Made by a program: the position numbers and the translations under genes | NCBI RefSeq assembly: GCF_007748075.1 | Contig: NZ_CP036280.1 | Location: 2,040,001-2,072,000 of the forward strand | Origin: Mucisphaera calidilacus | GTDB lineage: Bacteria > Planctomycetota > Phycisphaerae > Phycisphaerales > Phycisphaeraceae | Length of the DNA: 32,000 bases | Direction: 5' to 3' | Part shown: positions 8,201-25,957 of the stretch, piece after piece | Position numbering within the stretch: position 1 is the first letter of the stretch | Layout of the letters: each line of letters begins with the position of its first letter | The notes under the pieces: generated by a model | The model's database searches: none | The model's input: the letters and a program-made list of their open reading frames with translations, nothing else | What the model was told of the DNA's origin: nothing

Positions 8201-8422
8201 ACCCTCCCTTACACCATAAAGCCATACATCACGGGATTTATAAGATTTCACTTGCCTCAACCCCACGCCAGCGCATGATTAACCTGTGCGCGGCGACGCC
8301 GCCACGACGCTTGGGGCTTCGGCAACGGAACCACGAGTCTTGACCACAACGTGGTCTGGCCTGCATTTCTGTTTTTTGAACGTGTGACCACACACATCCT
8401 CTTGTTATTGGGAGAAGACCTG

Positions 8423-9277: not shown

Positions 9278-9313
9278 TCCATTCAGACGACAACACAACC
9301 TGTTGATCCATGG

Positions 9314-9347
9314 CAACCGCTGGGTTCACCCCCAGCGGTTGTTCTTT
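9314..9347 (+). terminator. Rho-independent terminator candidate after the PEP-CTERM gene
   Basis: Perfect 11-bp stem caaccgctggg / cccagcggttg, 6-nt loop, followed by the T-rich tract ttcttt. Confidence 0.55.
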
Positions 9348-9442
9348 ATCCAAAAACCGCCCCCAACCGCCCCGATCGCCCCGCTTGACGCCACCACCGA
9401 CAGCCCGCATCATCACGCTCTACCAAACACTAGGAGAGCGGG

Positions 9443-10318
9443 ATGCACCACTACAATCTCATCGCACAGGCAGCCGAAGAACCCCAGCCCACCGACGAAC
9501 CCTTCAACATCTCCCCCGAGATGATCCAGCAACTCGCCCTCGACTACGCGCCCAAGATCCTCGGCGCCCTCGCCATCATCATCATCACCCTCCTCGTCGC
9601 CGGCATCGTCGCCGGCGTCGTCCGCAGCACCATGCGACGGGCCAACACCGACGAAACCCTCACACGCTTCATCGGCAAGATGATCTGGTGGGGACTCCTC
9701 CTCCTCGGTGCCCTCACCTCGCTCACCGTCCTAGGCGTCCAGATCACCGCCTTCGCCGCCGTCCTCGCCGCCATGGGCTTCGCCATCGGCCTCGCCTTCC
9801 AGGGAACCCTCGGCAACCTCGCCTCAGGCGTCATGCTCCTCGTCTTCCGCCCCTTCAAGGTCGGTGACGTCGTCAATGTCTCAGGCACCACTGGCAAGGT
9901 CTTCGAGATCGACCTTTTCACCACACTCCTCGACACGCCCGACAACCGACGCATCATCGTCCCCAACGGCACCATCTTCGGCTCCACCATCGAGAACATC
10001 ACCCACCACCCCACAAGACGCTGTGACGTCAGCGTCGGCACCGAATACCCCGCCGACCTCGACAAGGTCCGCGAGACCCTCGAAAAAGCCGTCGCCTCCG
10101 TCGATGGCGTCCTCACAGACCCCGCCCACCAGATCTACCTCCTCGAGCTCGGCGACTCCTCCATCAACTGGGCCGTACGCGTCTGGGTCAACACACCCGA
10201 CTTCTGGGCCGTCCGCGAAAAACTCACCCGCGCCGTCAAGGTCGAACTCGACAACGCAGGCATCGGCATCCCCTACCCGCAGATGGACGTCCACCTCTTC
10301 AAACAGGACACGCCGTAA
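9443..10318 (+). CDS. Small-conductance mechanosensitive channel (MscS family)
   Basis: Three N-terminal TM helices followed by the MscS core LASGVMLLVFRPFKVGDVVNVSGTTGKVFEIDLFTTLLDTPDNRRIIVPNGTIF. aggagag RBS upstream of the ATG. Confidence 0.9.
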   Translation: MHHYNLIAQAAEEPQPTDEPFNISPEMIQQLALDYAPKILGALAIIIITLLVAGIVAGVVRSTMRRANTDETLTRFIGKMIWWGLLLLGALTSLTVLGVQITAFAAVLAAMGFAIGLAFQGTLGNLASGVMLLVFRPFKVGDVVNVSGTTGKVFEIDLFTTLLDTPDNRRIIVPNGTIFGSTIENITHHPTRRCDVSVGTEYPADLDKVRETLEKAVASVDGVLTDPAHQIYLLELGDSSINWAVRVWVNTPDFWAVREKLTRAVKVELDNAGIGIPYPQMDVHLFKQDTP

Positions 10319-10367
10319 CAACCACCCTCAACCTCCAACCGCATCAAGAACGAGAAAGACACGCCTT

Positions 10368-11135
10368 ATGTTCAAGCGTTCCCTCCTGACCGCCGCCATC
10401 CTCGCGGCCATCTCCATCCCCGCCGCAGCCCAGGAACCCGAGCCCGAACCCGACGACAAGCCCGGGCTCTTCGGCACCAGCTTCCTCGAAGGCTGGGACC
10501 GACGCTTCACCCTCGGCATCGACGGCGAAGAAAACGACTCACCCGAATTCAACTTCTTCACCCTCCTCGAACTCGACTACACCAGCGACTACCACCGCTG
10601 GAACATCGACGTCAGCTACGACTACGGCACCGAAGAACACGACCTCTCCGACAACGAATTCCTCTTCAGTGTCCTCAAGGACTGGGTCTTCCCCGACAAA
10701 ACCTTCTTCTACTGGGCGCACGGCTCCTACGAGTACGACGAATTCGACGACTACCGCCAGCGGTGGACCGGCTTCGGCGGCCTCGGCCTCAACCTCTACA
10801 AAGACGAGAAACACCTCCTCGACGGACGCGCCGGCCTCGGCATCATCAACGAGGTCGACCCCTCCGACACCCGGCCCGAGGGCGTCTTCGGCCTCGAGTA
10901 CAAGTGGAAGATCAACGACAACCAGGACTTCTTCGTCAGCAACTACGTCTTCCCCAACCTCGAAGACCTCACCCGCTACCGCAACGAAACCGTTGTCGAC
11001 TGGATCATCAAGATGGACGCCGCCGAGGGACTCAGCCTCCGCATCGGCCTCGAAAACGAATACGACATGAACGTCACCGGCGGCTCCAAACGCAACGACC
11101 TCAACTACCGCCTCGCACTCGTGATCGACTTCTAA
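10368..11135 (+). CDS. Putative outer-membrane beta-barrel protein (DUF481/YdiY-like, tentative)
   Basis: Signal peptide [22 protein letters not shown]. Alternating aromatic/polar beta-strand pattern rich in Y/W/D/N. Terminal residue is F (LALVIDF), as in many OMPs. Family assignment is from memory only. Confidence 0.55.
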
Positions 11136-11165
11136 ATCACATTCAACACAGCAGTTACCCCAAAC

Positions 11166-11194
11166 AGCCCGCGCCCTCAAGCGTGGGCTTTTTC
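11166..11194 (+). terminator. Rho-independent terminator candidate
   Basis: 9-bp stem agcccgcgc / gcgtgggct with one G-U pair, 6-nt loop, then ttttt. Lies 30 nt after the stop codon of the beta-barrel gene. Confidence 0.55.
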
Positions 11195-11299
11195 ACGACG
11201 CAACCCAACCAGTCGCCTTGCCCTGCGCTCAATACAGGGCATAGTAAAACAGGGAAGAAAACCGCCCACACCCCGGTTCTAAACTGTGTCGAGGTGATC

Positions 11300-12064
11300 A
11301 TGCTTACGAATCCACCCACAGACCGACGCCAACCGGGAGGCTTCACCCTCATCGAACTCCTGGTCGTGATCTCGATCATCGCCCTGCTCATCGGCATCCT
11401 CCTCCCCGCACTCTCCGCCGCCAAACGCACCGCTCGCGTCCTCCAGTGCGGCACCAACCTCCGCCAGATCGGTGTCGCCTGGCAGCTCTACCTCATGGAC
11501 TACGACGAACGCTTCCCCAAGTTCCGCCAGCACATGCACTGGGTCTATGGCGGCATGAGCGGCCCCGACACCGTCACCACCTGGGACGACAACGCACCCT
11601 TCGAACGCCCCCTCAACCCCTACGTCGGGCTCGCCACCAACAACACCCAGGGCCTCGACACCTTCCGCTGCCCCGAGTCACGCCCCTACCACGACATCGA
11701 TGGCAACGGCGGCAGCAATGGACACGACGCCTACGACTACTGGGGCAACACCTACATGCTCAACACGGTCCTCACCCCCACACCCTCCCAGAGAGACACC
11801 AACGTCGCCCTCTTCGAATCCGGGCTTTCGGAATCACGCATCGTCCTCGCAGGCGACATGATGTGGTACTTCACTGTGAACTTCAGCGAACGATGGCAGT
11901 GGGACGCACACTTCCACAACCGCGACTACAAGATGAACCTCCTCTTCCTCGACGGACACGTCGCCTTCACCCAGCTCTACCGCAACGTCGCACAGACCGA
12001 CACCTACAGCTTCCCCCTCGTCCAACTCCCACCCGACGACGCCCAGGCAGCACCGGAAAACTGA
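11300..12064 (+). CDS. Prepilin-type N-terminal cleavage/methylation domain protein (DUF1559 / H-X9-DG-like), paralog of 604..1347
   Basis: [33 protein letters not shown] leader. Shares FRCP and RPLNPYVG blocks with the first paralog. C-terminal [21 protein letters not shown] at 11300 preceded by gaggtga. Confidence 0.85.
11339..11421 (+). repeat. 83-nt copy B of the prepilin-leader coding segment
   Basis: 79/83 identical to 652..734. All four differences are synonymous. Confidence 0.85.
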
Positions 12065-12299
12065 CAATCATTGCGCAGAAAAAACAAGGCACACTCGGAC
12101 GCCGCAGCGCCCGGGCATGACCTCGTTGCCACAACCCGCCCCGATTTCCACCCTCCGCCCCGCTCGTACCCCTTCTCCTAAATGACTACGCCGGAAATCA
12201 CCCCCGCCTGCGCACCCACACAGATATTTTTGTGTTATAAGTAAAACCCTTAGCCTGAAAAAACGTTGCCGAGTCCATGCACCGGAGAGGGCCTCTTGC

Positions 12300-13193
12300 A
12301 TGTCCGATCGTTCTCAGGAAGTTTCAGACGAACATCTGGATAACCCCCGACTCGCCAGCGAACAAGACGCTAAACCCTCCGTCCTCACCGAGCAGGACCT
12401 CCGCAACGTCATCAAACTCCTGCTCAACGTCATGCAGACCGAGGGATCCACAAGCATCAAAAAACGCGCCCTCATGCAGGGCCTCGCCGAACTCGTCGAC
12501 GCCGACTCCTGGATCTGGACCATCTCACGCGACGTCCACGAAGGCGGCACACCCGTCTCCGTCTGGATGATCCATGGCGGACTCTCCGAATCCCAGATCT
12601 CCGCGCTCCTCCAGTACACCCAGGACACCACCGTCGAACGACCCGAAGACGATGTCGTCTTCAAGCTCCAGAAGTCAGGCGAACACTTCACCCGCCGACG
12701 GCAGCAGATGATGCCCGACGAGGCATTCAAGAACGCCTCCGGCATGAAACGCTACGGCAAACAGATCAATATCGACCAGTACGTCTTCTCCATCTACCCC
12801 CTCGACGAACCCGACATGATCTCCGCCGTCGGCATGCACCGTCGCAACGGACGCCCACCCTTCTCCGAACGCGAGGCCCGACTCATCCACATCGTCTGCA
12901 GCGAGATCCGCTGGCTCCACTACAGCGACATCCCCGCCAACAAGGCCCGCGAATCCCTCGACCTCACGCCGCGGCAACGCACCGTCTTCATGATGATCCT
13001 CCAGGGAACCAGCCCACGCGACATCGCCGGACAACTCGAAATCAGCATCCACACCGTTAACGACCACATCAAGGCCATCTACCGACACTTCCACGTCGCC
13101 AGCCGAAACGAACTCATCGCACGGTTCATGCAATGCGACGGCGGCGACACCACCCCACCCCGCACCGAAACAAAAAAAGACCCCGACGGTTGA
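12300..13193 (+). CDS. LuxR/GerE-family transcriptional regulator with an unassigned ~200-aa N-terminal domain
   Basis: C-terminal HTH LTPRQRTVFMMILQGTSPRDIAGQLEISIHTVNDHIKAIYRHFHVASRNELIARF is a clear GerE/LuxR-type domain. The N-terminal domain has no receiver (no D-D-K pattern) or other motif I can name. Confidence 0.8.
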   Translation: MSDRSQEVSDEHLDNPRLASEQDAKPSVLTEQDLRNVIKLLLNVMQTEGSTSIKKRALMQGLAELVDADSWIWTISRDVHEGGTPVSVWMIHGGLSESQISALLQYTQDTTVERPEDDVVFKLQKSGEHFTRRRQQMMPDEAFKNASGMKRYGKQINIDQYVFSIYPLDEPDMISAVGMHRRNGRPPFSEREARLIHIVCSEIRWLHYSDIPANKARESLDLTPRQRTVFMMILQGTSPRDIAGQLEISIHTVNDHIKAIYRHFHVASRNELIARFMQCDGGDTTPPRTETKKDPDG

Positions 13194-13230
13194 ACCGCCG
13201 AGGCCTCGCTCATCTCAAGATCTGATCGCG

Positions 13231-14208
13231 TCAGTTCAGGAAGTCGTGCTCCATCTGCTCACGCAACTTCTCCAACGCGCGATTCTGGATCTGACGCACA
13301 CGCTCCTTCGTCACGCCGATCGTCTTGCCGACCTGCTCCAGCGTGAACCCGCGACCGTTCGGCCGACGCGTCTCCGCACGCAGCCCGAAGCGGTGATCCA
13401 GCACCGCCTTCTCGACGTCCGACAACTCAGCCCGGTTTGTCTTCAACAGATCGCCGACCTCATCGATGCAGTCTTCCTCGTGCGTCTCGCGCAGCTTCTC
13501 CATGAAGTCCGACCGCTCGAACTTCGGGTCATACGCCGCGGGGAACATCCGCTTGTGACGCGTCTGCTTCTGACCCGCACGGCTGAACGCCTTGAGAATC
13601 GCGCGGCAGGCGTACGTCGAAAACTTGAAGCCACGCGAAGCATCAAACTTGTCCACCGCTCGCATCAACGCCATGTTGCCCTCGGACACCAGGTCCGCGA
13701 ACTCCAGGTCCGTCAGCTTCACACGCTTGGCCATCGCCAGCACCAGCGCCAGGTTCGTGTTCGCCACCTGCTCACGGTACGCCTCCGCGCGCTCGTGCCA
13801 CCTCAGGAATCGAACCGCCATGTCCTCGTTGAGCTTCCGCTGGCGACGCAGCCGGTCGTGCAGCTTCGACGCCCGGTACCGCGCGTAGTTGAACTGCAGA
13901 AAGAGCGCCTGCTCCTGCTTCGCCGTCAACAACACCGTCCCGCCCGTCACCGGGTTCGCGTGCACACCCAGCACGTCATCGATCATCGGCGCGTACCAGC
14001 GCGTGTCCGGCTCGGGCACCTCCACCGCGTCGCGATAGATCAGCTTCTCCGCACGCGCCGGAGGCTCGTGGAACAACTCGTGATCCATGTAGTCATACAC
14101 CTCAAGCTCAAGCAGCGACGCCAGCGTCTCGCGCTGAACACGGGTCAACAACGAGCCCGAGCGACGCTTGGACTTGGGTTCTGAGGTGAGGGAAAAAGCT
14201 GCGGCCAT
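13231..14208 (-). CDS. RNA polymerase sigma-70 family factor (non-ECF, regions 2-4 present)
   Basis: Region 2 DLVSEGNMALMRAVDKFDASRGFKFSTYACRAI. Region 4.2 FTLEQVGKTIGVTKERVRQIQNRALEKLR. GGGAGG RBS followed by ATG at 14208 (MAAAFSL...). The longer ORF-track extension to 14700 crosses an AT-rich intergenic region and was rejected. Confidence 0.85.
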   Translation of the reverse strand: MAAAFSLTSEPKSKRRSGSLLTRVQRETLASLLELEVYDYMDHELFHEPPARAEKLIYRDAVEVPEPDTRWYAPMIDDVLGVHANPVTGGTVLLTAKQEQALFLQFNYARYRASKLHDRLRRQRKLNEDMAVRFLRWHERAEAYREQVANTNLALVLAMAKRVKLTDLEFADLVSEGNMALMRAVDKFDASRGFKFSTYACRAILKAFSRAGQKQTRHKRMFPAAYDPKFERSDFMEKLRETHEEDCIDEVGDLLKTNRAELSDVEKAVLDHRFGLRAETRRPNGRGFTLEQVGKTIGVTKERVRQIQNRALEKLREQMEHDFLN

Positions 14209-14378
14209 GGGACCTCCCTGTGGTGATGAGCGGTATTCCGTTATGACAGTCCGCCACTGAGTCCTCATAATCCGATTGAACCTAGAATAATTCCAAAAAT
14301 CAAGATCTTTTTCCCGGACCCGCACAGCCGTCACAATGGATAAATCGAAATCCAACTCAATTCGTCCTGATTCAGGGC

Positions 14379-14428
14379 TATAATGTGGTTGTAACGACCT
14401 GAGATCGGTCTGGAATATTCCGATCTCA
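14379..14428 (+). promoter_or_regulatory. Candidate sod promoter -10 element plus downstream palindromic operator or leader hairpin
   Basis: Perfect TATAAT at 14379-14384 in an AT-rich intergenic region; the -35 is poor. A 9-bp inverted repeat tgagatcgg-N11-ccgatctca spans 14400-14428, with an internal 10-bp palindrome ggaatattcc. It ends 30 nt upstream of the sod ATG. Confidence 0.35.
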
Positions 14429-14457
14429 CACAGAATGAACGACTTATGGAGATACCC

Positions 14458-15093
<636 letters not shown>

Positions 15094-15115
15094 GACACAA
15101 CACCATCACAACACA

Positions 15116-15146
15116 ACCGTGGTCGTCACAACGACCACGGTTTTTC
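15116..15146 (+). terminator. Rho-independent terminator after sod
   Basis: Perfect 11-bp stem accgtggtcgt / acgaccacggt, 4-nt loop caca, followed by ttttt. Confidence 0.75.
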
Positions 15147-15267
15147 ATGCGCGTAAGGCCCGTCTTATCGGCCCTGCACAAGAAGCGGACGCGGGAAGAT
15201 AGGCGAACCGATATCCTCATGGGTAACACGCCTGCGGCTCCTGAACACCCCCCAGAGACACCGACGC

Positions 15268-16692
15268 ATGAGACACTACGACGCCGTCGTTATCGGAACC
15301 GGCCCGGCGGGCCAGAAGGCGGCGATCCAGGCCGCCAAGCTCGGCAAGAGCGTCGCCATCATCGAGAAGGGCTCCGTCCTCGGCGGGGCGCAGGTCAACA
15401 CCGGCACCGTCCCCTCCAAGGCGCTGCGCGAAGCCGCCATGCACCTCACCGGCGCCGGCAAACGCGGGCTCTTCGGCGAGTCCTACCGCGTCAAGAAGAC
15501 CATCACCATCCGTGACCTCGTCTCCGTCTCCCAGCAGGTCATCCGCAACGAGTGGGAGGTCATCCGCGAACAGCTCGACCGCAACGGCGTCGACCTGCTC
15601 TGGGGCAAGGCCCACTTCGAGGGACCCAACCTCGTCCAGATCGTCGGGCCGGACCACGCCGAGATGGTCACCGGCGACGTCTTCGTACTCTGCGTCGGCA
15701 CGCGACCCGCCACCCCCGACCACGTCCCCTTCAACGACAACAACATCCTCACCTCCGACAGCTTCCTGCAGGTCGACCGCCTGCCCCGAAGCCTCATCGT
15801 CGTCGGCGGCGGCGTCATCGGCACCGAGTACGCCTGCATCATGGCGACGCTCGGCGTCAAGGTCACGCTCGTCGAGGGCCGCCCGAAGCTCCTCGGCTTC
15901 ATCGACAGCGAGATCTCCGAGGCGCTGCAGTTCTACATGCGCCGCGAAGGCGTGACGCTACGGCTCGGCGAGAAGGTGGACCGCATCTACGAGATCCCGG
16001 AGGAGGAGCGGCAGAACACCAACGGCTCGGGCGGGCCGCAGGTCGTAGCCCAACTCGAGTCGGGCAAGACGCTTAAGGCCGAGTGCCTGCTCTACGCCAT
16101 CGGCCGCCAGGGCGTCTGCGGCGACCTCGGGCTGGACAACGTCGGTGTGGCTTACGACGACCGCGAGCGGCTGAGCGTCAACGAGCGCTACCAGACGAGT
16201 GTGCCGCATGTCTATGCGGCGGGGGATGTTATTGGTTTTCCGTCGCTGGCTTCGACGTCGATGGAACAGGGTCGGCGGGCGATGTGCCACGCGTTGGGCA
16301 CCGAGATCGAGAACTGGAACACCGAGCTGTTCCCCTACGGGATCTACGGCGTGCCGGAGATCTCGATGGTCGGCAAGACCGAGGAGCAGCTGACCGACGA
16401 GGGCATCCCCTACGAGGCGGGGATCGCGAGTTATAAAGAGATTGCCCGCGGGCAGTTACTGGGCGATGAGTTCGGCATGCTCAAGGTGCTGATCCATCAG
16501 GAGAACCACACGATCCTCGGCGTGCACGCGATCGGATCGGGGGCGACGGAGATCATCCACATCGGGCAGGCGGTGATGGCCCACGGGGGCAAGGCGGAGT
16601 ACTTCATCAACAACGTCTTCAACTTCCCGACGCTGGCCGAGGCGTACAAGGTGGCGGCGTACAACGGGCTGAACAAACTGGCCCACGTGTGA
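15268..16692 (+). CDS. sthA: Soluble pyridine nucleotide transhydrogenase (flavoprotein disulfide-reductase fold)
   Basis: FAD fold YDAVVIGTGPAGQKAA. Blocks parallel E. coli SthA: KAECLLYAIGRQG, YQTSVPHVYAAGDVIGFPSLASTSMEQGRRA, GIYGVPEISMVGKTEEQL and IIHIGQAVMAHGGKAEYFINNVFNFPTLAEAYKVAAYNGLNKL. There is no CxxxxC redox disulfide (GGAQVNTGTVPSKAL), which fits a transhydrogenase rather than LpdA. Confidence 0.87.
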   Translation: MRHYDAVVIGTGPAGQKAAIQAAKLGKSVAIIEKGSVLGGAQVNTGTVPSKALREAAMHLTGAGKRGLFGESYRVKKTITIRDLVSVSQQVIRNEWEVIREQLDRNGVDLLWGKAHFEGPNLVQIVGPDHAEMVTGDVFVLCVGTRPATPDHVPFNDNNILTSDSFLQVDRLPRSLIVVGGGVIGTEYACIMATLGVKVTLVEGRPKLLGFIDSEISEALQFYMRREGVTLRLGEKVDRIYEIPEEERQNTNGSGGPQVVAQLESGKTLKAECLLYAIGRQGVCGDLGLDNVGVAYDDRERLSVNERYQTSVPHVYAAGDVIGFPSLASTSMEQGRRAMCHALGTEIENWNTELFPYGIYGVPEISMVGKTEEQLTDEGIPYEAGIASYKEIARGQLLGDEFGMLKVLIHQENHTILGVHAIGSGATEIIHIGQAVMAHGGKAEYFINNVFNFPTLAEAYKVAAYNGLNKLAHV

Positions 16693-16745
16693 GGGTTTGG
16701 GCTGAGTCCGTCGCGCACAATCTGACAACTTTGCAGGAATTTACA

Positions 16746-16838
16746 TTTTTTCGGGTTCGTTTCGGGTCGTTTTCGAGCGTTTTGGGTTCGTTTTCGTCCG
16801 TTTTGGAGCGTTTTGGTCCAAAAAGGGCCTGTTTTTGG
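16746..16838. repeat. Helically phased T-tract / CGTTTYSG short tandem array in the sthA-downstream intergenic region
   Basis: Units cgtttcgg, cgttttcg, cgttttgg, cgttttcg, cgttttgg, cgttttgg start at 16758, 16768, 16778, 16789, 16799 and 16809 (spacing 10,10,11,10,10). Flanked by T6 at 16746, A5 at 16820 and T5 at 16832. gagcgttttgg occurs twice, 31 bp apart. Looser copies lie at 16913 (cggttttcgg) and 16952 (cgttttca). Confidence 0.85.
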
Positions 16839-16991
16839 TCGCGATGTGCGCACAAAGACCGTCATCGTGCGCGCGACCCCTGAAATCGGGAGGTCGGGGT
16901 GAAAGAAAGTATCGGTTTTCGGAAGCGGCGGTATACTGATGGAACCTGTGTCGTTTTCATCTGATTTCCGCCTTCCGAGGAGGACTTGGAC

Positions 16992-18875
16992 ATGCTGGGA
17001 TTGACGAAGCGTGGCGTGGTGTTGGGGGTTGTTCTGGGTCTGGGTTTGGGCGTCTGTCCTGCGGCGGATGCGGAGCCGACGGTGATCGACGGGGTCGTGC
17101 GTTCGGAGGGCGGGAACCTCCGGCTGACGGGTGACCCGCTGGTGTTCACCGGCGAGGCGTACGCGGGCCGCCTGCCGACCGAGGACTCGTTTCCTTCTGA
17201 TCACGCGGGCACGATTACGTTTGAGCGTGTTGAGGGGGAGGGCGGTCGTTTCTTTGCGGGGGTCAGAAGCAGTATCACGGTTGAAGCGACGACGGGGCCG
17301 GGCCTGTTTCTTGATCAGGTCTATGTCGATACGAGGAGTTCCTACCGGGGTGTTCTCATCGATGAGGCCGAGCGTGTGTCGATCGAGCATGCGGAGGTTC
17401 TGTCGGGCAGTTTCACGAGCCTGGCGAGTGAGCTGGCGATCGGCGCGATGTCGGTCAGCGGCAGGGATTCGCAGGTCTACCTCGCGGGCGACGGTCTCCA
17501 GCGGCTCGACGAACTGGTCGCGTCGGAGCACGCGTGGGTTGGGATTTCCGGCCTGAACGCGGGTGGTTCGTCGAGCGGTCGTCCGAGCGGGTGGTATCTG
17601 TCGAGACTGGATTTTGAGGATGCCACGCTGGTGCTGGACGGCAGCGTGTACGAGACGTATATCACGATGACTGGCGGCCGTCTTGACCTTGGTGGCCTGA
17701 CCGGGGAGGCGCTGAATCTTGGGTATCGAACGCGGTTTGTGCTGCGTGAGAGCGTGGTGCGGGTGGAGGAGCCTTATCGGTTTGATGACCTGCAGGATCG
17801 GGTCGACTTTTCTCGGTCTGAGGGTGCGGTGCTGGCGTTGACGGAGCACCTGCTACCGAACGATGCGGGTGTTCTGCACCTGACGCCGACGTGGGAAAGG
17901 TATGAGTTGCGTTCTGGTGAACGGCTGAGCAACGTGCGTGTGACGGGTGCGTCGCTGGTGGGCGTGGACGTCGCGGAATCGTCTGGTGGGCGCGGGGGGC
18001 CCTACCCTTCCGGTAGGATCGAGGATGCTGTGGTGGAGGTGCCGGTTCGCGGGGGGTATCCGTTGTTTGCGGGCGAGGTTGTGTTGACCGGGGGTGTGGT
18101 GCTGGACCGTGCTTTTGTCGAGGGCATCCTGACGGTGGATGCAGAGCGTGATTTTTCGATCGAATATCTTGAGGTGAGCGGGTTGCTGGAGACAGAGCGA
18201 GGCGGGCGTCTGGAGGTTCCCGCGGATCACTTCTGGCAGTTGCGTGGCGGTGCGGTGCGTGCGGGTGCGTTGGTGGTGGAGGGCGAGGTCTCGCTGATGC
18301 ATGGGGATGAGGCGGCGTCGATTTTTGGCGATCTGGTTCTGACGGATGAGGCGACCGCGTTGTTCGATGTCACGGATCGGGTTGACGGTGTTTATCGCCT
18401 GAGTTCGGCGCGGGTGGAGGTGATCGGCCGGGCGGAGTTGGGCGGGCACGCCGAGTTCAGGTTTTATGGGCCTGAGGTTTTGCCGCTCTTCGGTCAGCGT
18501 GAATTGCTGATGCGGCCGTCGGAGGGGATTGAGGGTCGTTTCGCGACGGTCGGTGGCGTGATGCTTGGCGAGGGTTTGGGGCTGGCGGTGTGGTACAGCG
18601 ATTATTCGGTGTTGACGGAGGTGGCTTACCTCGGCGACGCGGATCTGGACCGGCGTGTGGATCTGGATGACCTGTCGGTCCTGGCGGAGCATTTTGGTGA
18701 GGATGGCGCGGTGTGGCGGGAGGGGGATTTCAATGGTGATGGCGTGGTGGACCTGATGGATCTGAGTCTGCTGGCGGGGAACTTCGGGCGGTCGGGCGTG
18801 CCCGCGGTCCCGGAGCCGGGTGTGGGTTTGTTGCTCGGGGTTGGGCTGGTGTTGCGGGGCGGGGTTCGGGGCTGA
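16992..18875 (+). CDS. Large secreted PEP-CTERM protein with C-terminal dockerin-like Ca-binding repeats
   Basis: gaggagga RBS then ATG 16992. Signal peptide LGLTKRGVVLGVVLGLGLGVCPAADA. Dockerin-like pair DADLDRRVDLDDLSVLAEHFG and GDFNGDGVVDLMDLSLLAGNFG. Terminal VPEPGVGLLLGVGLVLRGGVRG is a PEP-CTERM. The central ~500 aa are unassigned, possibly beta-helical. Confidence 0.75.
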   Translation: MLGLTKRGVVLGVVLGLGLGVCPAADAEPTVIDGVVRSEGGNLRLTGDPLVFTGEAYAGRLPTEDSFPSDHAGTITFERVEGEGGRFFAGVRSSITVEATTGPGLFLDQVYVDTRSSYRGVLIDEAERVSIEHAEVLSGSFTSLASELAIGAMSVSGRDSQVYLAGDGLQRLDELVASEHAWVGISGLNAGGSSSGRPSGWYLSRLDFEDATLVLDGSVYETYITMTGGRLDLGGLTGEALNLGYRTRFVLRESVVRVEEPYRFDDLQDRVDFSRSEGAVLALTEHLLPNDAGVLHLTPTWERYELRSGERLSNVRVTGASLVGVDVAESSGGRGGPYPSGRIEDAVVEVPVRGGYPLFAGEVVLTGGVVLDRAFVEGILTVDAERDFSIEYLEVSGLLETERGGRLEVPADHFWQLRGGAVRAGALVVEGEVSLMHGDEAASIFGDLVLTDEATALFDVTDRVDGVYRLSSARVEVIGRAELGGHAEFRFYGPEVLPLFGQRELLMRPSEGIEGRFATVGGVMLGEGLGLAVWYSDYSVLTEVAYLGDADLDRRVDLDDLSVLAEHFGEDGAVWREGDFNGDGVVDLMDLSLLAGNFGRSGVPAVPEPGVGLLLGVGLVLRGGVRG

Positions 18876-18913
18876 GGGTGGAGGGTGCGTTTGTGTGCGG
18901 TGCGGTTGCGTTG

Positions 18914-19702
18914 TCAGAGGATGGGGATGGGGGGTGAGTCGTCGAAGCGGTCTTCGTGGACTTCGATGCTGCCGTTGTTGTGTTGGGTTGCGATGCCGAG
19001 GTCCTGGAGTGCCTGCAGGGCGGCTTTCTGTTCGGCTTCTTTTTTGCTGTTGGCCCATGCGGAGGTGTATTTGTGTCCGCCTATTTCGACGCAGACCTCG
19101 AAGGCCTTGGCGTGGTCGGGTCCTTTTTCGTCGAGGAGGATGTAGGCGGGGTTGCCCGGGAGGTGCCGCTGGGTGTAGTGCTGTAGGACGCTTTTGAAGT
19201 TGTGCTGGTGGAGAGAGTTGGTGGCTTCTTCGAGGATGTCGTCGAGGGCGTGGAGGATAAATTGTTTGGCGGCGGGGTATCCGGCGTCGAGGTAGATGGC
19301 GGCGATGACGGACTCGAAGACGGCGGCGGCGACGCTGGTGGGCAGGTCGGTGCCGGCCTCCATGCCCTTGCCGAGTTTGAGGCAGTCGGGGAGGCCGAGT
19401 TTTCGGCTGACCTTGGCGCAGGCTCGTCGGCTGACGACAGCGGACTTGATCTTGGTGAGTTCGCCTTCCTGTTCGGAGGGCAGTTCGTGGAAGAGGTATT
19501 CGCAGACGACCTGTCCGAGTACGGCGTCGCCGAGGAACTCGAGTCGCTCGTTGCTTTCGAGTCGGTCGCCGATGCTTGAGGCGTGGGTGAAGGCGCGTTT
19601 GAGGAGGTCTCGGTCGTCGAACTGGTGACCGAGGCGTTGCTGGCAGTCGTTGATGAGTTCGTGATCCATATTGCTGTTCTGGCAGTCGATGACCTGAGGC
19701 AT
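18914..19702 (-). CDS. rnc: Ribonuclease III
   Basis: RNase III signature ERLEFLGDAVLGQVV. C-terminal dsRBD FKSVLQHYTQRHLPGNPAYILLDEKGPDHAKAFEVCVEIGGHKYTSAWANSKKEAEQKAALQAL. Start is ATG 19702 or the internal ATG 19669. Confidence 0.92.
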   Translation of the reverse strand: MPQVIDCQNSNMDHELINDCQQRLGHQFDDRDLLKRAFTHASSIGDRLESNERLEFLGDAVLGQVVCEYLFHELPSEQEGELTKIKSAVVSRRACAKVSRKLGLPDCLKLGKGMEAGTDLPTSVAAAVFESVIAAIYLDAGYPAAKQFILHALDDILEEATNSLHQHNFKSVLQHYTQRHLPGNPAYILLDEKGPDHAKAFEVCVEIGGHKYTSAWANSKKEAEQKAALQALQDLGIATQHNNGSIEVHEDRFDDSPPIPIL

Positions 19703-19824
19703 CCTGCGGGTTGAGGGGCGGAGGTGAGACTTCGGACGATTGTATCCTGTCGGGTGCGTTCGATTTGCGCGAATAGGCGGTTTGGGTGGTTGTCAGCTTG
19801 CCGCGACGTGGTTAGTCTCACCGC

Positions 19825-21750
19825 GTGAAGAACCTTTCCTGGATTGTGTACGCGGTTAGTCTGTTGCTCCTGCAGGGGACCTGGTCGCGGGGCGAATTGC
19901 TTTCCCCTCGTCTGGATCTGGTGAAGATTCCGTCGGAGCCGACGCCAAGCATGCGTGTTTCGGAGGTTCGTCCGGGGATGCGTGGTGTTTGTCTGACGGT
20001 TTTTTCGGGGACGAAGATCGAGCCTTTTGAGGTGGAGGTGATCAGCGTCATTGAGCGTAGTGGTCCGGGTCAGGCTGTGATTTGGATGCACTCGGAGGAC
20101 CCTCGGATGCTGGTGACGGGTCCGGTTCAGGGGATGTCGGGTTCGCCTGTGTACCTTTGGGATGGCGAGGAGCCGAATGATCCTGATGACGAGCGTCTGG
20201 GCGGGGGTCGTCTGATCGGTGCTTTTGCGTATGGGTACGCGAATACGAAGGGTTGTCTGATCGGTGTGCAGCCGATCGAGCAGATGGTTCCGGTGGGCGA
20301 GCGTATCGGCAAGGCGCCGGTGGATTACGCTCGTGGGGCGCGACGTGCCCTCGACACGGTGGGATCGGGTCTGGCGTCGGTGGAGGCGGATGCTGGCACG
20401 GAGGCGCGTTGTGCCGCGTGGTTGTCGGTGTTGTCGCCTTGGACGGCTGGCGGTCCTGCGCGTGGCGGTGTGGTGTTCAACGATTCGCTTCGGCCGATGT
20501 CGTTGCCGGTGACGGGTCTGAGCAAGCGTTTTCTGGAGTTGGGTCTTCCGCTGGAGGTGGGTGGCGGGCTGGAGCTGGTTGCGGATGGTGGGAGTGTGGG
20601 GCCGCCTCCTGCGTGGATTGATCCTGATGCAAAGCTGGAGCCGGGGTCGGCGTTTGTGGTTCCGCTGACGACGGGCGATCTGGACCTGGCGGGCGTGGGG
20701 ACGACGACGGATGTCCGTCCGGACGGGACGGTGCTGGCGTTTGGTCACTCGATGAACGGGGAGGGTTCGAGCGCGTTGCCGATGGCGACGGGCTACGTGC
20801 ACTTTATTGTTCCGAGCCGTGGCAACAGCTTCAAGCGTGGTACGCCTTTGCGTGTGGCTGGGACGTTGCTGCAGGACGAGACGGCCGCGGTTGCGGGTCG
20901 TGCGGTGCTGGAGCACACGATGGCGACGATGCGTGTGGCGGTGTCGATGCCGGGTCAGCCGGATCGGTCGTATGCGTATCAGGTGGCGCGCCATCCTTAT
21001 TACACCCCCCTGCTGTCGATGATCTGTGCGGCTCGTTCGCTGGCCGCGGAGCAGATGCCGCCTGTGGAGAGCACGACGCGTTACGCGATTGACTTTTCGT
21101 TTGATGACGGGCGGACGCTGGCGGTGAAGAACACGTCGGTGTCGGGGAGTTTTGCGTTGTACAGCACGATGATGCCCGTGATCGCGTCGGCGATGAGCAA
21201 TCCTTACGAGCCGCTTCGGCTGTCGTCGGTGGATGTTGATCTTGAGGTCACGGAGGGTGTTCGGACGGCGGAGTTGCTGGGTGCGCGTCTGGCGAAGTCG
21301 ACATTGGAGCCCGGCGAGGAGGCGGTGGTTTACGTCGAGGTTCGGCGTTACAAGGGTGAGGCGGAGACGGTTCGTCTGGTGATTCCCGTGCCTGAGGGCA
21401 CGGCGGAGGGTCAGTATCAGTTGTTTGTTGGCGGTCGTGCCTCGCACCTGATGCGGATCATGCGTTCGCAGCCGCACCGCATGGAGATTCGTGGTCTGGA
21501 CGATCTGTTCACGGTGATTGATGAGATCGAGAACACGCCTGCGGAGGGTTTGTACGGGATGCTGATTGCGGAGGGCGGGGGTTTGGCGGTGGGTCGTCAG
21601 TCGCTTCCGGATCTGCCAAGCAGTGTTCGGGCGTCGATCACGTCGAGTGGTCAGGCGTCGGTGTTCAGCGAGGTGGTAACGTCCCGCGCTGAGTTGGATC
21701 TCGAGATTTTTGGTGAGTACCCGTTGATGCTGACGGTGACGAAGCCCTGA
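19825..21750 (+). CDS. SpoIVB/S55-type serine peptidase domain protein, secreted
   Basis: Signal/anchor MKNLSWIVYAVSLLLLQG. VCLTVFSGTKIEPFEVEVISVIE followed by VTGPVQGMSGSPVYL...RLIGAFAYGY matches the S55 catalytic-serine block (GIVQGMSGSPI...GAVTHV in SpoIVB). GTG start. The C-terminal ~450 aa are unassigned. Confidence 0.72.
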   Translation: MKNLSWIVYAVSLLLLQGTWSRGELLSPRLDLVKIPSEPTPSMRVSEVRPGMRGVCLTVFSGTKIEPFEVEVISVIERSGPGQAVIWMHSEDPRMLVTGPVQGMSGSPVYLWDGEEPNDPDDERLGGGRLIGAFAYGYANTKGCLIGVQPIEQMVPVGERIGKAPVDYARGARRALDTVGSGLASVEADAGTEARCAAWLSVLSPWTAGGPARGGVVFNDSLRPMSLPVTGLSKRFLELGLPLEVGGGLELVADGGSVGPPPAWIDPDAKLEPGSAFVVPLTTGDLDLAGVGTTTDVRPDGTVLAFGHSMNGEGSSALPMATGYVHFIVPSRGNSFKRGTPLRVAGTLLQDETAAVAGRAVLEHTMATMRVAVSMPGQPDRSYAYQVARHPYYTPLLSMICAARSLAAEQMPPVESTTRYAIDFSFDDGRTLAVKNTSVSGSFALYSTMMPVIASAMSNPYEPLRLSSVDVDLEVTEGVRTAELLGARLAKSTLEPGEEAVVYVEVRRYKGEAETVRLVIPVPEGTAEGQYQLFVGGRASHLMRIMRSQPHRMEIRGLDDLFTVIDEIENTPAEGLYGMLIAEGGGLAVGRQSLPDLPSSVRASITSSGQASVFSEVVTSRAELDLEIFGEYPLMLTVTKP

Positions 21751-21782
21751 TGCGTTCGGAATGAGCGCAGGAGAGTGATGCG

Positions 21783-24212
21783 ATGCTTGGATTGACTGGT
21801 CGCGGCGCGTGCGCTGCTTTTGCGGTGTTGCTGGTGCTGTGTGTTTCGGGTGTGTCGCGGGCGATCGTTCCGGTGACGGTGGAGCAGGCGACGGAGGCGG
21901 ATTTCTCGGAGGGTGTGACGGAGGGGACGCGTGTGACGAACACGGGTCGCGTGGCGTTGGCGAAGCGTGTGGAGGACCTGGCGGAGGGCGGGGAGGCGTT
22001 TTCGTCGGTGTTTGACGTGTTGTTCTCGGGTGACCTGACGCTGGTGTGTGTGGCGGCGGGGCCGTCGGGGTATTTCCATCTCGCGGTAGGCGAGGAGCCT
22101 GTGGCGGTGGGCGGCGTTGAGGAGGCGGAGCAGGTCTTCGCGTTGTGTGATGTTGGCGGGAAGCGGCTGGTTGGCGTTTCGGGAGAGGGGACGTCTCGTC
22201 TGGCGTGGGAGACGGCGGGTGCGGATGGGGGCGTTGTTCTCGAGACGGTGGTTGAGCTTGAGGGCGTTCGGTACGTGTGGGATATCGTGGCGGTTTCGGC
22301 GGAGTTGGTAGCGGTGGCGACGGGCACTGAGGGCAGGGTGCTGCTGGTGAATCTTGCGGCTGGTGAGGACGAGCCGTTGGTGCTGCTGGAGACGGAGCAG
22401 CCGAACGCGTTGTGTCTGGCGACGAGCCGTGACGGGAAGACGGTTTACGTGGGGACGGATGGGGACGGGCTGGTTTACCGGGTGACGGGTCTGGATGCGG
22501 CAGGTCCTGAGGTTTACGTGATGTATGACGCTGGCGAGCCGGAGGTGGCTTCGCTGCTGGCGTTGGAGGATAGTTCGTTGCTGGTGGGGACGGCGGACGC
22601 GGAGCAGGCGAAGCCCGGGCGTCTGGAGGAGGCGGTGAGCGAGTCGGAGGGTGAGGTTGAGGGCGAGGGCGTTGTTGAGGAGGCGTCGGAAGCGGCGGTG
22701 GAGGCTGAGGCTGATGAGCCTGCCGAGGCGGTCGCTGTTGAGGAAGAAGTGAACGAGGAGGAGGTGGTTGAGGACGTCGCGGTGGTGGAGCCGGATGTGG
22801 TGGAGGTGACGGACGAGCAGCGTGATCGTCTTCGTGATGCGTTGCGTGAGCGGCTGCTGGTCGCGCGTGAGCGTGGCGAGTTGAAGACGGGTGGTCTGGC
22901 GAGCAAGGGTGGTGAGAAGAAGTCGGAAGGGCGTCGGCCTCGGCCTGCGTCAGCGGCGTCGCAGGAGGAGGGCAACGCGGTCTATCGGATCACGCCTGAC
23001 GGGTTCGTGGAGACCTTGTTGCGGGAATCGACGACGATGCTTTCGCTGAGTGAGGAGGACGGGGTCGTCACGGTGGGCACGGGTAATGAGGGTCAGGTGT
23101 TCCGGGTGGTGATGGCGACGCTTGAGGTGTCGGTGCTGGCCGATTTTGAGAGCGAGCAGGTGAGTTGGATGGCGGGGATGGGTGAGGGTCGTTTTGTGAT
23201 GGGTCTGTCGAATCCGTCGCGTGTGGTTTCGGTGGGCACCGAGCCGGAGATGCGTGGGACGTTTGAGTCGTCGGTGATTGATGCCGGGCAGATCAGTTTT
23301 TGGGGATCGGGTCGTTTGCGTGTGTTGCTGCCTGCGTCGTCGTCGGTGACGTTCGAGACGCGGAGCGGGAACGTGGCGGACCCGGACTCGGGTCGATGGT
23401 CGTCGTGGTCGTCGCCTCTGGGTCTGATGCCTCATGAGACGGTGCCGGCGGCGGTTCCGCGTGAGGTGTCGATCACGTCGCCTCCGGCGCGTTTTCTGCA
23501 GTACCGGGTGACGCTGATTGGTGATGGCGAGGCGTTGCCTGAGCTGGATGCGGTGGAGGTGACGCACGTGATGCCTAACCTGGCGCCACGGATCGCGACG
23601 GTGTCGGTGGAGGTGCCGGAGGTGGGCGGTCCGGAGGAGGAGGTTGCGTCGGAGTACGGGGTGTCGTGGGAGGCGAATGATCCGAACGGTGACCGTCTGG
23701 AGTATGTGGTTGAGCTTCAGCGGGCGGGGTCTACGGTGTGGCTCAAGGGCGCGGAAGACGTTACTGAGACTGAGTTTGCGTGGCCTGTGAACCGTGTGCC
23801 GGACGGCTGGTACCGGGTTCGTGTGACGGCGAGTGATCTGCTGGACAACCCGCCTGACATGGCGAAGCGGGCCAAGCGGGTGTCGGACCCGGTTCTGGTG
23901 GACCGGACGGCTCCTGAGGTGGAGGAACTGGCGTGGGAGGCGGTTGGCGGGGATCGGATTCGTGTGTCGGGGGTGGCGGTGGACGGGTTGTCGCCGCTGG
24001 TGGGGATCGAGTACGCGGTGGATGGCGGGGAGGCGTATCGTCCGATCGTGCCTGAGGATCTGATCCTGGATTCGACTCGTGAGGCCTTCTCGGTTACACT
24101 GCGGGGCTTCACCGGTTCGGAGCACGTTCTGACGCTCCGGGTGGTGGATCGGCGTGGGAACGCGAAGCTGATCCCGCTGATCATCAAGATGAACCCGGCC
24201 GCCGACGGTTAA
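21783..24212 (+). CDS. Large secreted protein of unknown function (propeller-like N-domain, acidic linker, Ig/FN3-like C-terminal modules)
   Basis: aggagag RBS. Signal peptide MLGLTGRGACAAFAVLLVLCVSGVSRA. An E/V/A-rich acidic low-complexity stretch of roughly 80 aa (SESEGEVEGEGVVEEASEAAVEAEADEPAEAVAVEEEVNEEEVVEDVAVVEPDVVEV). C-terminal blocks such as WEANDPNGDRLEYVVEL and VPDGWYRVRVTASDLLDN. Starts 32 nt after the S55 gene. Confidence refers to it being a real CDS; function is unknown. Confidence 0.7.
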   Translation: MLGLTGRGACAAFAVLLVLCVSGVSRAIVPVTVEQATEADFSEGVTEGTRVTNTGRVALAKRVEDLAEGGEAFSSVFDVLFSGDLTLVCVAAGPSGYFHLAVGEEPVAVGGVEEAEQVFALCDVGGKRLVGVSGEGTSRLAWETAGADGGVVLETVVELEGVRYVWDIVAVSAELVAVATGTEGRVLLVNLAAGEDEPLVLLETEQPNALCLATSRDGKTVYVGTDGDGLVYRVTGLDAAGPEVYVMYDAGEPEVASLLALEDSSLLVGTADAEQAKPGRLEEAVSESEGEVEGEGVVEEASEAAVEAEADEPAEAVAVEEEVNEEEVVEDVAVVEPDVVEVTDEQRDRLRDALRERLLVARERGELKTGGLASKGGEKKSEGRRPRPASAASQEEGNAVYRITPDGFVETLLRESTTMLSLSEEDGVVTVGTGNEGQVFRVVMATLEVSVLADFESEQVSWMAGMGEGRFVMGLSNPSRVVSVGTEPEMRGTFESSVIDAGQISFWGSGRLRVLLPASSSVTFETRSGNVADPDSGRWSSWSSPLGLMPHETVPAAVPREVSITSPPARFLQYRVTLIGDGEALPELDAVEVTHVMPNLAPRIATVSVEVPEVGGPEEEVASEYGVSWEANDPNGDRLEYVVELQRAGSTVWLKGAEDVTETEFAWPVNRVPDGWYRVRVTASDLLDNPPDMAKRAKRVSDPVLVDRTAPEVEELAWEAVGGDRIRVSGVAVDGLSPLVGIEYAVDGGEAYRPIVPEDLILDSTREAFSVTLRGFTGSEHVLTLRVVDRRGNAKLIPLIIKMNPAADG

Positions 24213-24241
24213 CGGCGAGCCCTGAGACAGCGAGCGAGACG

Positions 24242-24391
24242 ATGTCCACTCACTACCCCAAGCGTCGTAGCCGTATCAAGCGATCCCGCATGTGGGGTTT
24301 CCGTGCCCGCATGAAGACGAAGCAGGGTCGGAAGATGATCAACCGCAAGCGTCGTGTTGGTCGGAGCGTGAACGTCCGTCACAACTTCTGA
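24242..24391 (+). CDS. rpmH: 50S ribosomal protein L34
   Basis: 49-aa ORF MSTHYPKRRSRIKRSRMWGFRARMKTKQGRKMINRKRRVGRSVNVRHNF found by hand; it is below the 60-aa cutoff of the ORF track. Carries the L34 core (H/W)GFRARMxTxxGRxxxxxRRxxGR. Confidence 0.85.
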   Translation: MSTHYPKRRSRIKRSRMWGFRARMKTKQGRKMINRKRRVGRSVNVRHNF

Positions 24392-24609: not shown

Positions 24610-25926
<1,317 letters not shown>

Positions 25927-25957
25927 GCCGGATCGAGACACGACGAATATGACAGAA

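What the first reader, a model, noticed from the sequence alone, without database searches (positions are those of the whole stretch)
15300..16990. Abrupt chromosome-strand composition switch (C/A-rich to G/T-rich) located inside an intact sthA gene: replication-origin-type polarity
Left of about 15.8 kb the + strand is C- and A-rich; right of about 16.1 kb it is G- and T-rich. Spot counts give C 26 vs G 10 at 661-720, and G 28 vs C 14 at 17041-17100. Synonymous codon choice flips for + strand genes. On the left they use ctc/gtc/acc/gcc/ggc/cgc/gaa. On the right they use ctg,ttg/gtg,gtt/acg/gcg/ggt,ggg/cgt,cgg/gag,gat,ttt. This follows the chromosome strand, not transcription. Minus-strand genes on the left (bcp, sigma factor) use the G/T-ending set, while minus-strand genes on the right (rnc, the ArsC-like gene) use the C/A-ending set. 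The transition can be followed codon by codon within sthA. The 5' two-thirds use mostly gtc/ctc/acc, and from about 16140 the codons become ggt gtg gct ... gat gtt att ggt ttt. In bacteria the leading strand is normally G/T-enriched, so a + strand change from C/A-rich to G/T-rich is the signature of an origin, not a terminus. The magnitude is unusually large, and a boundary inside a conserved ORF is unusual for an origin. The alternative is an old inversion or recombination junction, for example between paralogous flavoprotein reductase genes.
Basis: partly seen in the sequence, partly recalled or inferred. Interest (0 to 1): 0.72.

Follow-up and report, generated by a model that had tools for sequence, protein, structure and literature searches.

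The report
Strand-composition switch inside the sthA gene
In the chromosome of the planctomycete Mucisphaera calidilacus, an exceptionally strong strand bias flips sign in the middle of an intact gene, most likely where the two oppositely replicated chromosome arms meet with origin-type polarity, but no origin sequence elements could be found.

Summary
The window comes from Mucisphaera calidilacus Pan265. Its + strand has GC skew -0.29 and AT skew +0.18 up to about 15.9 kb, and +0.28 and -0.22 after 16.2 kb. At four-fold degenerate sites the skew reaches ±0.5-0.9. It follows the chromosome strand, not the direction of transcription. The change point lies inside sthA, at 15.84-16.20 kb.

Both halves of sthA are equally close in protein sequence to three relatives, and no second M. 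calidilacus sthA appeared among the closest database matches. The 3' half differs from relatives mainly by C-to-G/T third-position changes.

Both flanks show full-strength skew, so I read this as a present-day boundary between oppositely replicated arms. By the canonical rule (leading strand G/T-rich) its polarity is that of an origin.

The origin reading is not proven. The window has no dnaA gene, DnaA-box cluster, parS or dif site, although relatives carry canonical DnaA boxes upstream of dnaA. The whole-chromosome skew could not be computed.

Origin is favoured at about 0.5. The feature is a known kind of thing, unusual in magnitude and in lying inside a gene.

The parts
1..15900 (.). C/A-rich lane of the + strand: GC skew -0.29, AT skew +0.18. 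It holds 13 genes on + and 2 on -. By the canonical rule this arm is replicated leftward.
15268..16692 (+). sthA, soluble pyridine nucleotide transhydrogenase (QDU71814.1), intact, 474 aa. Codons 1-218 are C-rich at four-fold sites (-0.68). Codons 219-474 are intermediate (+0.17).
15840..16200 (.). Transition zone of the mutational strand bias. Change-point estimates are 15,921 and 16,194.
16693..16991 (.). Spacer between sthA and the next gene, 52% GC. It is also the point where gene order stops matching L001, L164 and L166. It has no DnaA box with 2 or fewer mismatches. It is the only nearby non-coding DNA that could hold origin elements.
16749..16820 (+). Seven CGTTTT units phased at about 10.3 nt (also scored as periods 21 and 31). 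Function unknown. Not found in any of the other loci scanned.
16815..16840 (+). Terminator-like hairpin GGTCCAAAAAGGGCC followed by a T run. Probable sthA terminator.
16200..32000 (.). G/T-rich lane of the + strand: GC skew +0.28, AT skew -0.22. It holds 9 genes on + and 2 on -. By the canonical rule this arm is replicated rightward.
16992..18875 (+). First gene of the right lane, a hypothetical or dockerin-domain protein (QDU71815.1). Only one database hit, itself.
14209..14457 (.). AT-rich (46% GC) divergent promoter region between the sigma-factor gene (-) and sodA (+). It lies entirely inside the C/A lane, so it is not the switch point.

Best explanation
The feature is a present-day boundary between two chromosome arms that are replicated in opposite directions (a chirochore boundary).

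Shown: a very strong mutation pressure acts in this organism. It enriches G and T on one strand of each arm and C and A on the other. It has driven four-fold sites to a G:C ratio of about 1:10 or 5:1, depending on the arm. The point where this pressure changes sign lies at about 15.9-16.2 kb, inside sthA. The 5' 650 nt of the gene have kept the C/A-rich state. The 3' 770 nt have gone about 70% of the way to the G/T-rich state by in-place synonymous substitution.

Inferred: the pressure is linked to replication. If the leading strand is G/T-rich, as in bacteria generally, the two forks move away from this point, so it is the replication origin region. On that reading the origin's cis elements would sit in or near the 293-bp spacer after sthA.
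For: 1. The skew follows the chromosome strand, with equal strength on both sides. Lane effect 0.72, coding-strand effect -0.11.
2. Neither flank shows decay. Left genes are at -0.75 to -0.91, as extreme as any relative. Right genes sit at the value the fit expects. A fossil junction old enough to let sthA change would have let one flank decay.
3. The gene changed in place. Compared with L001, the 5' part of sthA changed mainly towards C. The 3' part changed C>G 39, C>T 14 and A>G 12 times, against G>C 2 and T>C 3.
4. Amino-acid identity and identity at codon positions 1+2 to L001, L164 and L166 are the same in both halves. Only position 3 tracks the lane.
5. sthA appears to be single-copy.
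6. The polarity is C/A-rich to G/T-rich on the + strand, with G and T enriched together as on canonical leading strands.
7. sthA lies 8 kb from dnaA in two Phycisphaeraceae (L048, L008/L082) and 257 kb (6% of the genome) from it in Poriferisphaera sp. WC338.
8. Switches of the same sign lie at or near sthA in other lineages: at the stop codon in L073, and 3-5 kb away in L077 and L021/L018.
Against: - The window has no dnaA, dnaN or parAB gene, no parS site and no DnaA-box cluster.
- Relatives carry perfect TTATCCACA boxes upstream of dnaA, so canonical boxes would be expected at an origin.
- The switch lies 0.5-0.8 kb from the nearest non-coding DNA.
- 13 of 15 genes on the left would be transcribed head-on to replication.
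- In relatives dnaA is not reliably at a switch of this sign. WC338 has none within 10 kb. L082 has a switch of the opposite sign 1 kb downstream of dnaA.
- Short blocks of reversed skew occur near sthA in relatives (L021), so not every switch in this family is an origin or terminus.
- The L073 switch sits in a 146-bp spacer between convergent genes, too small for an origin.
- That the leading strand is G/T-rich has not been verified in this clade.
Confidence: 0.5

Rival explanations
1. Rearrangement junction. An inversion or translocation placed a block from the opposite lane next to sthA. The switch is then a fossil of that event, and both sides of the window are now replicated in the same direction.
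For: - Gene order matches L001 and L164 from pyrG to the end of sthA and stops matching exactly in the spacer after sthA. L166 also differs there.
- Relatives show blocks of reversed or half-converted skew on the 5-15 kb scale: L021/L018, and the stepwise ramp in L164/L001.
- Close relatives hold sthA in opposite lanes: L166 against L001/L164.
- No origin or terminus elements were found.
Against: - The compositional change point is 0.5-0.8 kb inside an intact gene, not at the point where gene order breaks.
- The 3' part of sthA changed by in-place directional substitution. That takes long enough for one flank to have decayed too, yet both flanks are at full strength.
Confidence: 0.2
2. Fork-convergence (terminus) point in a clade whose leading strand is C/A-rich, the reverse of the canonical polarity. 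A meeting point of forks needs no sequence element. It can therefore lie inside a gene, and it drifts when the lengths of the two arms change.
For: - No origin elements are present, and the boundary is intragenic.
- The 3' part of sthA is only about 70% converted, as if the boundary had moved about 770 bp.
- In L082 a G-to-C switch lies 1 kb downstream of dnaA, close to DnaA boxes and a parS-like site.
- Several other planctomycete dnaA loci are more G-rich to the left of dnaA than to the right: L081, L147, L150, L114.
Against: - It needs a polarity I know of in no bacterium (own knowledge; the SkewDB paper searched describes the leading strand as G-rich).
- G and T are enriched together, as on canonical leading strands.
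- No dif-like site was found.
- Other dnaA loci show the canonical sign: L133, L167, L168.
- In strongly skewed loci dnaA lies more often on the G-rich strand, 6 against 2.
- WC338 shows no switch at dnaA at all.
Confidence: 0.1
3. Mosaic gene. The 3' part of sthA came from another copy or allele that had lived on the G/T-rich strand, by recombination between two copies or by import from a related strain.
For: - Lineages with sthA wholly on the G/T-rich strand exist among close relatives (L166, 86% identical).
- Some Phycisphaeraceae genome assemblies carry two sthA genes: L059 and L063 come from one assembly.
Against: - Amino-acid identity of the 3' half to L166 (0.859) is not higher than to L001 (0.875). 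Identity at positions 1+2 is equal, 0.92-0.93.
- Both halves are closest to L001 among the 80 loci.
- No second M. calidilacus sthA appears among the best 120 hits. The sthA cluster at 90% identity has a single member.
- A reciprocal exchange would leave a partner chimera, and none is seen.
Confidence: 0.05

Closest known systems
GC-skew inversion at bacterial replication origins and termini (Lobry 1996; 'chirochores', Frank and Lobry 2000; SkewDB, PMC8941118)
   Same: - The sign change of G-C and A-T asymmetry follows the chromosome strand.
- G and T are enriched together on one strand.
- The change from C-rich to G-rich on the top strand is the origin signature.
   Different: - Magnitude. 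SkewDB gives a typical skew of about 2.5% (abstract). Here it is about 28% over all bases and 45-90% at four-fold sites.
- The change point is inside a conserved ORF.
- No dnaA gene or DnaA boxes are nearby.
Strand-specific codon and amino-acid usage in Borrelia burgdorferi and Treponema pallidum (McInerney 1998; Lafay et al. 1999; from my own knowledge, not checked here)
   Same: - Codon choice is determined mainly by which replication strand carries the gene.
- The effect reaches amino-acid composition. Here Val is 6.9 vs 10.7%, Gly 7.8 vs 10.4%, Asn 4.3 vs 1.9% and His 3.5 vs 1.6%.
   Different: - Those genomes are AT-rich and have a strong excess of genes on the leading strand.
- This genome is 64% GC, and the window shows no gene-orientation bias that tracks the lanes: 13+/2- on the left, 9+/2- on the right.
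DnaA-dependent oriC (DnaA-box cluster plus AT-rich unwinding element, usually next to dnaA)
   Same: Only the skew polarity. The organism's relatives encode DnaA and use canonical boxes.
   Different: None of the sequence elements is present at or near the switch.
Amelioration of skew after inversions, seen as local skew anomalies in SkewDB ('forensic record', PMC8941118)
   Same: Relatives show blocks of reversed or partly converted skew next to sthA. The 3' part of sthA is partly converted.
   Different: In the window both flanks are at full strength, and the boundary does not coincide with the rearrangement point.

Membership tests
Bacterial chromosomal origin (oriC) | GC skew of the top strand changes from negative to positive | tested here: met
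   -0.29 to +0.28, with the change point at 15.84-16.20 kb
Bacterial chromosomal origin (oriC) | The switch is the global minimum of the cumulative skew of the replicon | not testable with these tools
   Only 32 kb of CP036280 are available. The genome is not in the contig index.
Bacterial chromosomal origin (oriC) | Cluster of DnaA boxes (TTATCCACA-like) | tested here: not met
   Six boxes with 1 or fewer mismatches are scattered over 32 kb. None with 2 or fewer mismatches lies in 16693-16985. Nowhere in the window are there 3 or more boxes within 400 bp. Relatives have perfect boxes upstream of dnaA.
Bacterial chromosomal origin (oriC) | AT-rich unwinding element with repeats | tested here: inconclusive
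   The spacer 16693-16985 is 52% GC against 63% for the window. It holds phased CGTTTT repeats but no AT-rich 13-mers. Its predicted fold is no more stable than that of shuffled sequence, z = -0.38.
Bacterial chromosomal origin (oriC) | Neighbourhood of dnaA, dnaN, parAB or parS | tested here: not met
   None found by Pfam in the window. tblastn with E. coli DnaA finds nothing in the window. No parS with 3 or fewer mismatches. In relatives sthA is 8 kb (L048, L082) to 257 kb (WC338) from dnaA.
Bacterial chromosomal origin (oriC) | Copy-number maximum in growing cells, or DnaA binding | not testable with these tools
   Needs sequencing reads or experiments.
Replication terminus / dif region | GC skew of the top strand changes from positive to negative | tested here: not met
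   The sign change is the opposite one.
Replication terminus / dif region | A 28-bp XerCD dif site at the switch | tested here: not met
   The core CATAAT-N6-TTATGT with 3 or fewer mismatches matches only at 26.2 and 28.3 kb, which is fewer matches than chance gives.
Inversion or recombination junction | Gene order breaks at the compositional boundary | tested here: inconclusive
   Gene order with L001, L164 and L166 ends in the spacer at 16.7-17.0 kb. The compositional change point is 0.5-0.8 kb to the left, inside sthA.
Inversion or recombination junction | Chimeric gene whose two parts have different ancestry, with a partner copy | tested here: not met
   Both halves have equal amino-acid and position-1+2 identity to three relatives. 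sthA appears to be single-copy.
Inversion or recombination junction | One flank out of equilibrium (decaying skew) | tested here: not met
   The lane effect is the same on both sides. Left genes are at -0.75 to -0.91 and right genes at +0.45 to +0.79, with the minus-strand genes mirrored.

The most novel reading that the evidence does not exclude
The switch is where the two replication forks meet, not where they start. In these strongly skewed Phycisphaerae the leading strand would then be C/A-rich, the reverse of every bacterium studied so far. This would account for the absence of any origin element, for the boundary lying inside a gene, for its apparent drift by about 770 bp, and for the G-to-C switch seen 1 kb downstream of dnaA and its DnaA boxes in L082.
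Probability: 0.08. Interest if true: 0.85.

Novelty: new member of a known kind. Interest (0 to 1): 0.42.

Why it matters
If this is the origin, it fixes the replication map of a cultured, fully sequenced member of the little-studied class Phycisphaerae. It would also mean that the origin lies more than 15 kb from dnaA and lacks an obvious DnaA-box cluster, which is worth testing.

Whatever the boundary is, the strand asymmetry here is far above the usual range: four-fold-site G:C ratios near 1:10 and 5:1, visible in amino-acid usage.

Close relatives hold the same genes in opposite or half-converted states. pyrG shows 201 against 10 directional synonymous changes between two species of the genus. 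That makes the clade a natural system for measuring how fast replication-linked mutation pressure rewrites genes, and for asking which repair or polymerase feature causes so strong a bias.

Tried and rejected
- Fetching the rest of the genome. Exact look-ups of sthA, sodA and QDU71815 found no contig on record. The window could therefore not be placed on the chromosome.
- Placing dnaA by GenBank accession order. The M. calidilacus DnaA was not among the 120 listed hits. No paper gives QDU numbers or usable locus tags.
- Checking the polarity from dnaA loci. 80 metagenomic loci and six others give mixed signs.
- Checking the polarity from tRNA and rRNA genes. Too few lie in skewed loci.
- Checking the polarity from ribosomal-protein genes (L170). 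Their C-rich third positions may reflect selection on codon usage.
- Checking the polarity from gene orientation. No bias either way.
- A home-made gene caller based on codon-position composition. It picks antisense ORFs in the C/A lane and was dropped.
- GATC cluster at 16305-16551. It looked origin-like, but the same positions carry GATC in the G/T-lane ortholog of L166, so it follows from codon choice.
- Conservation of the spacer after sthA. No similarity in any locus.
- Known RNA families at 13-19 kb. None.
- dif and parS searches. Negative.
- Chimera with a distant paralog. Rejected.
- Assembly artefact. Rejected, because the gene is intact and orthologous along its whole length.
Full report
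**Source.** The window comes from Mucisphaera calidilacus Pan265 (class Phycisphaerae, phylum Planctomycetota). The ORF at 16992-18875 is 100% identical to QDU71815.1 on a contig of 3,486,541 bp. sthA, sodA, rnc, bcp and the nitroreductase are QDU71814, 71813, 71816, 71799 and 71826. The species paper gives CP036280, 3.49 Mb, 63.9% GC and 2,856 protein genes, and says nothing about skew or the origin.

**Gene map.** Pfam gives this map:
- Left of sthA: bcp (-), an N-methyl-motif protein, gmd, dapB, dapA, a dapD-like gene, pyrG, a PEP-CTERM protein, mscS, DUF481, DUF1559, a LuxR-family gene (all +), a sigma-70 factor (-), sodA (+).
- sthA at 15268-16692 (+), followed by a 293-bp spacer.
- Right of the spacer: the QDU71815 gene (+), rnc (-), an S55-like peptidase gene, a large unknown gene, eno, znuA, two ABC transporter genes, an unknown gene, a nitroreductase gene (all +), and a low-molecular-weight phosphatase/ArsC-like gene (-).

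- The + strand has GC skew -0.285 and AT skew +0.176 over 1-15,900.
- It has GC skew +0.278 and AT skew -0.224 over 16,200-32,000 (chi-square 1580 for G/C, 470 for A/T; profiles).
- At four-fold degenerate sites the coding-strand GC skew of + strand genes is -0.75 to -0.91 on the left and +0.45 to +0.79 on the right.
- The four minus-strand genes are mirror images: bcp +0.75, sigma +0.47, rnc -0.90, phosphatase -0.63.
- A two-term fit gives a chromosome-lane effect of 0.72 and a small coding-strand effect of -0.11 (third-position values).
It is strong enough to change amino-acid usage: Val 6.9 vs 10.7%, Gly 7.8 vs 10.4%, Ile 5.2 vs 2.8%, Asn 4.3 vs 1.9%, His 3.5 vs 1.6%.

**Where the switch is.**
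- Third-position G+T content is about 0.2 up to 15.87 kb.
- It is about 0.5 (range 0.28-0.76 in 25-codon windows) from 15.94 to 16.69 kb, and about 0.75 from 16.99 kb on.
- The likelihood change point is 15,921 (support 15,837-15,993) within sthA alone, and 16,194 (support 16,146-16,197) over a wider range.
- The four-fold GC skew of sthA is -0.68 in codons 1-218 and +0.17 in codons 219-474.
- Orthologs that lie wholly in a G/T lane have +0.31 to +0.57 in the same 3' part. Orthologs in a C/A lane have -0.59 to -0.89.
- The 3' part of the Pan265 gene has thus gone roughly 70% of the way from one state to the other.

**Is sthA a chimera? No.**
- Among 80 related loci, both halves are closest to the same genome, a Mucisphaera sp. 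metagenome assembly (L001): 86% and 90% amino-acid identity.
- Two further close relatives were fetched, L164 and L166, each 86% identical.
- Amino-acid identity of the Pan265 gene to all three is 0.86-0.875 in both halves. Identity at codon positions 1+2 is 0.92-0.93. Only position 3 follows the lane.
- Codon by codon against L001, the 5' part changed mostly towards C. The 3' part changed C>G 39, C>T 14 and A>G 12 times, against G>C 2 and T>C 3.
- Only one M. calidilacus sthA appears among the 120 best database hits (down to about 69% identity), and its cluster at 90% identity has one member.
- A reciprocal exchange between two copies would have left a partner chimera.
- The two halves of one vertically inherited gene have therefore been under opposite mutation pressure.

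**Is the boundary a fossil of a rearrangement?**
- Gene order matches L001 and L164 from pyrG to the stop codon of sthA and ends in the spacer. L001 and L164 continue with nadA and Rnf-like genes. L166 continues differently again.
- The family is prone to lane changes. sthA is C/A-rich in L001 and L164 and G/T-rich in L166.
- L164 and L001 show a stepwise ramp of third-position skew: +0.05, then about -0.4, then -0.62 over 15 kb. pyrG differs between L001 and Pan265 by 201 against 10 directional synonymous changes.
- L021/L018 carry a 10-kb G/T-rich block between C/A-rich flanks.
- A rearrangement at the 3' end of sthA in the Pan265 lineage is therefore likely.
- Two things argue that the mutation pressure itself switches here today. 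First, the change point is 0.5-0.8 kb inside the gene, not at the break in gene order. Second, the time needed to convert the 3' part of sthA would also have eroded whichever flank was out of equilibrium, yet both flanks are at full and equal strength.

**Origin or terminus?** Under the canonical rule (leading strand G/T-rich; own knowledge, and the abstract of PMC8941118), a change from C/A-rich to G/T-rich on the top strand is an origin.

Supporting context:
- sthA lies 8 kb from dnaA in two Phycisphaeraceae (L048, L008/L082) and 257 kb (6% of the genome) from it in Poriferisphaera sp. WC338.
- Switches of the same sign lie at the sthA stop codon in L073 and 3-5 kb from sthA in L077 and L021/L018.

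Against an origin:
- The window has no dnaA, dnaN or parAB gene, no parS site and no DnaA-box cluster. The spacer after sthA has no box with 2 or fewer mismatches.
- In this family, dnaA upstream regions carry perfect TTATCCACA boxes paired with GTGGATAAAAA.
- In L073 the switch falls in a 146-bp spacer between convergent genes.
- No dif-like site is present either.

I could not verify the polarity in this clade:
- dnaA loci give mixed signs. Canonical: L133, L167, L168. Opposite: L082, L147, L150, L114. No switch: WC338.
- tRNA and rRNA genes are too few in skewed loci.
- Ribosomal-protein genes in L170 are C-rich at third positions, which could be selection on codon usage.
- Gene orientation shows no bias in either direction.

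**Verdict.** The best reading is a live boundary between oppositely replicated arms with origin polarity (about 0.5 for origin). Rivals are a rearrangement fossil (about 0.2), a fork-meeting point with inverted polarity (about 0.1) and a mosaic gene (about 0.05).

The kind of feature is textbook. What is unusual is the size of the asymmetry, its position inside a conserved gene, and the lack of any recognisable origin element. Whole-chromosome skew of CP036280 and marker-frequency analysis would settle it.

Noticed in passing
whole window; L004, L081 (Poriferisphaera sp. WC338), L006, L073, L137: The strand asymmetry is far above the usual range. Four-fold-site GC skew is ±0.45-0.9 in the window. 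Overall GC skew reaches 0.48 in WC338. It alters amino-acid usage. I found no paper reporting it for Phycisphaerae.
   Followed up: partly
window 1-32000: No gene-orientation bias goes with the strong skew. The count is 13 (+) / 2 (-) left of the switch and 9 (+) / 2 (-) right of it. One arm is therefore transcribed almost wholly head-on to replication, whichever polarity holds.
   Followed up: partly
window 16749-16840: Seven CGTTTT units are phased at about 10.3 nt (helical repeat, curved-DNA-like or iteron-like). A terminator-like hairpin follows. Nothing like it occurs in the other loci scanned. Function unknown.
   Followed up: partly
L048 11900-12000; L081 9607-9650; L083 9640-9690; also L082, L167, L168: In Phycisphaeraceae, dnaA is preceded by a GNAT acetyltransferase gene. 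In L048, L081 and L083 there is also a conserved pair of inverted DnaA boxes (TTATCCACA ... GTGGATAAAAA). In WC338 this site is not at a skew switch, so it is probably the autoregulated dnaA promoter rather than oriC.
   Followed up: partly
L164 1-21425; L001 1-21422; L166: Close relatives (sthA 86-87% identical) keep the local gene order but differ in lane. L166 sthA is G/T-rich. L001 and L164 sthA are C/A-rich, with a stepwise ramp of third-position skew (+0.05, about -0.4, -0.62). pyrG shows 201 vs 10 directional synonymous differences between L001 and the window.
   Followed up: partly
L021 4500-16500; L018: A 10-kb G/T-rich block containing sthA sits between C/A-rich flanks. At its left edge, next to ftsK, is a 2-kb stretch of neutral skew and low third-position GC that encodes HTH_3 and Peptidase_M78 proteins. 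It looks like an inserted mobile element.
   Followed up: no
L082 12000-12500 (same contig as L008): A G-rich to C-rich switch lies about 1 kb downstream of dnaA. DnaA-like boxes and a parS-like site (GGTTTCACGTGAAGTG) lie upstream of dnaA. This is the opposite sign to the one expected at an origin. dnaA is split into 466-aa and 69-aa ORFs, possibly a long-read indel error.
   Followed up: partly
window, e.g. 1470-2774(-), 6740-8041(-), 29142-30536(-): Long 'shadow' ORFs run antisense to real genes (gmd, pyrG and others). They are a side effect of the skewed composition. Composition-based gene calling picks the wrong strand in the C/A lane.
   Followed up: yes
L169 / L170 about 9900: In Phycisphaeraceae bacterium D3-23 and a relative, skew changes from + to - immediately upstream of sthA. 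Part of this is a coding-strand effect, because the genes change orientation there. sthA again sits at a compositional boundary.
   Followed up: partly
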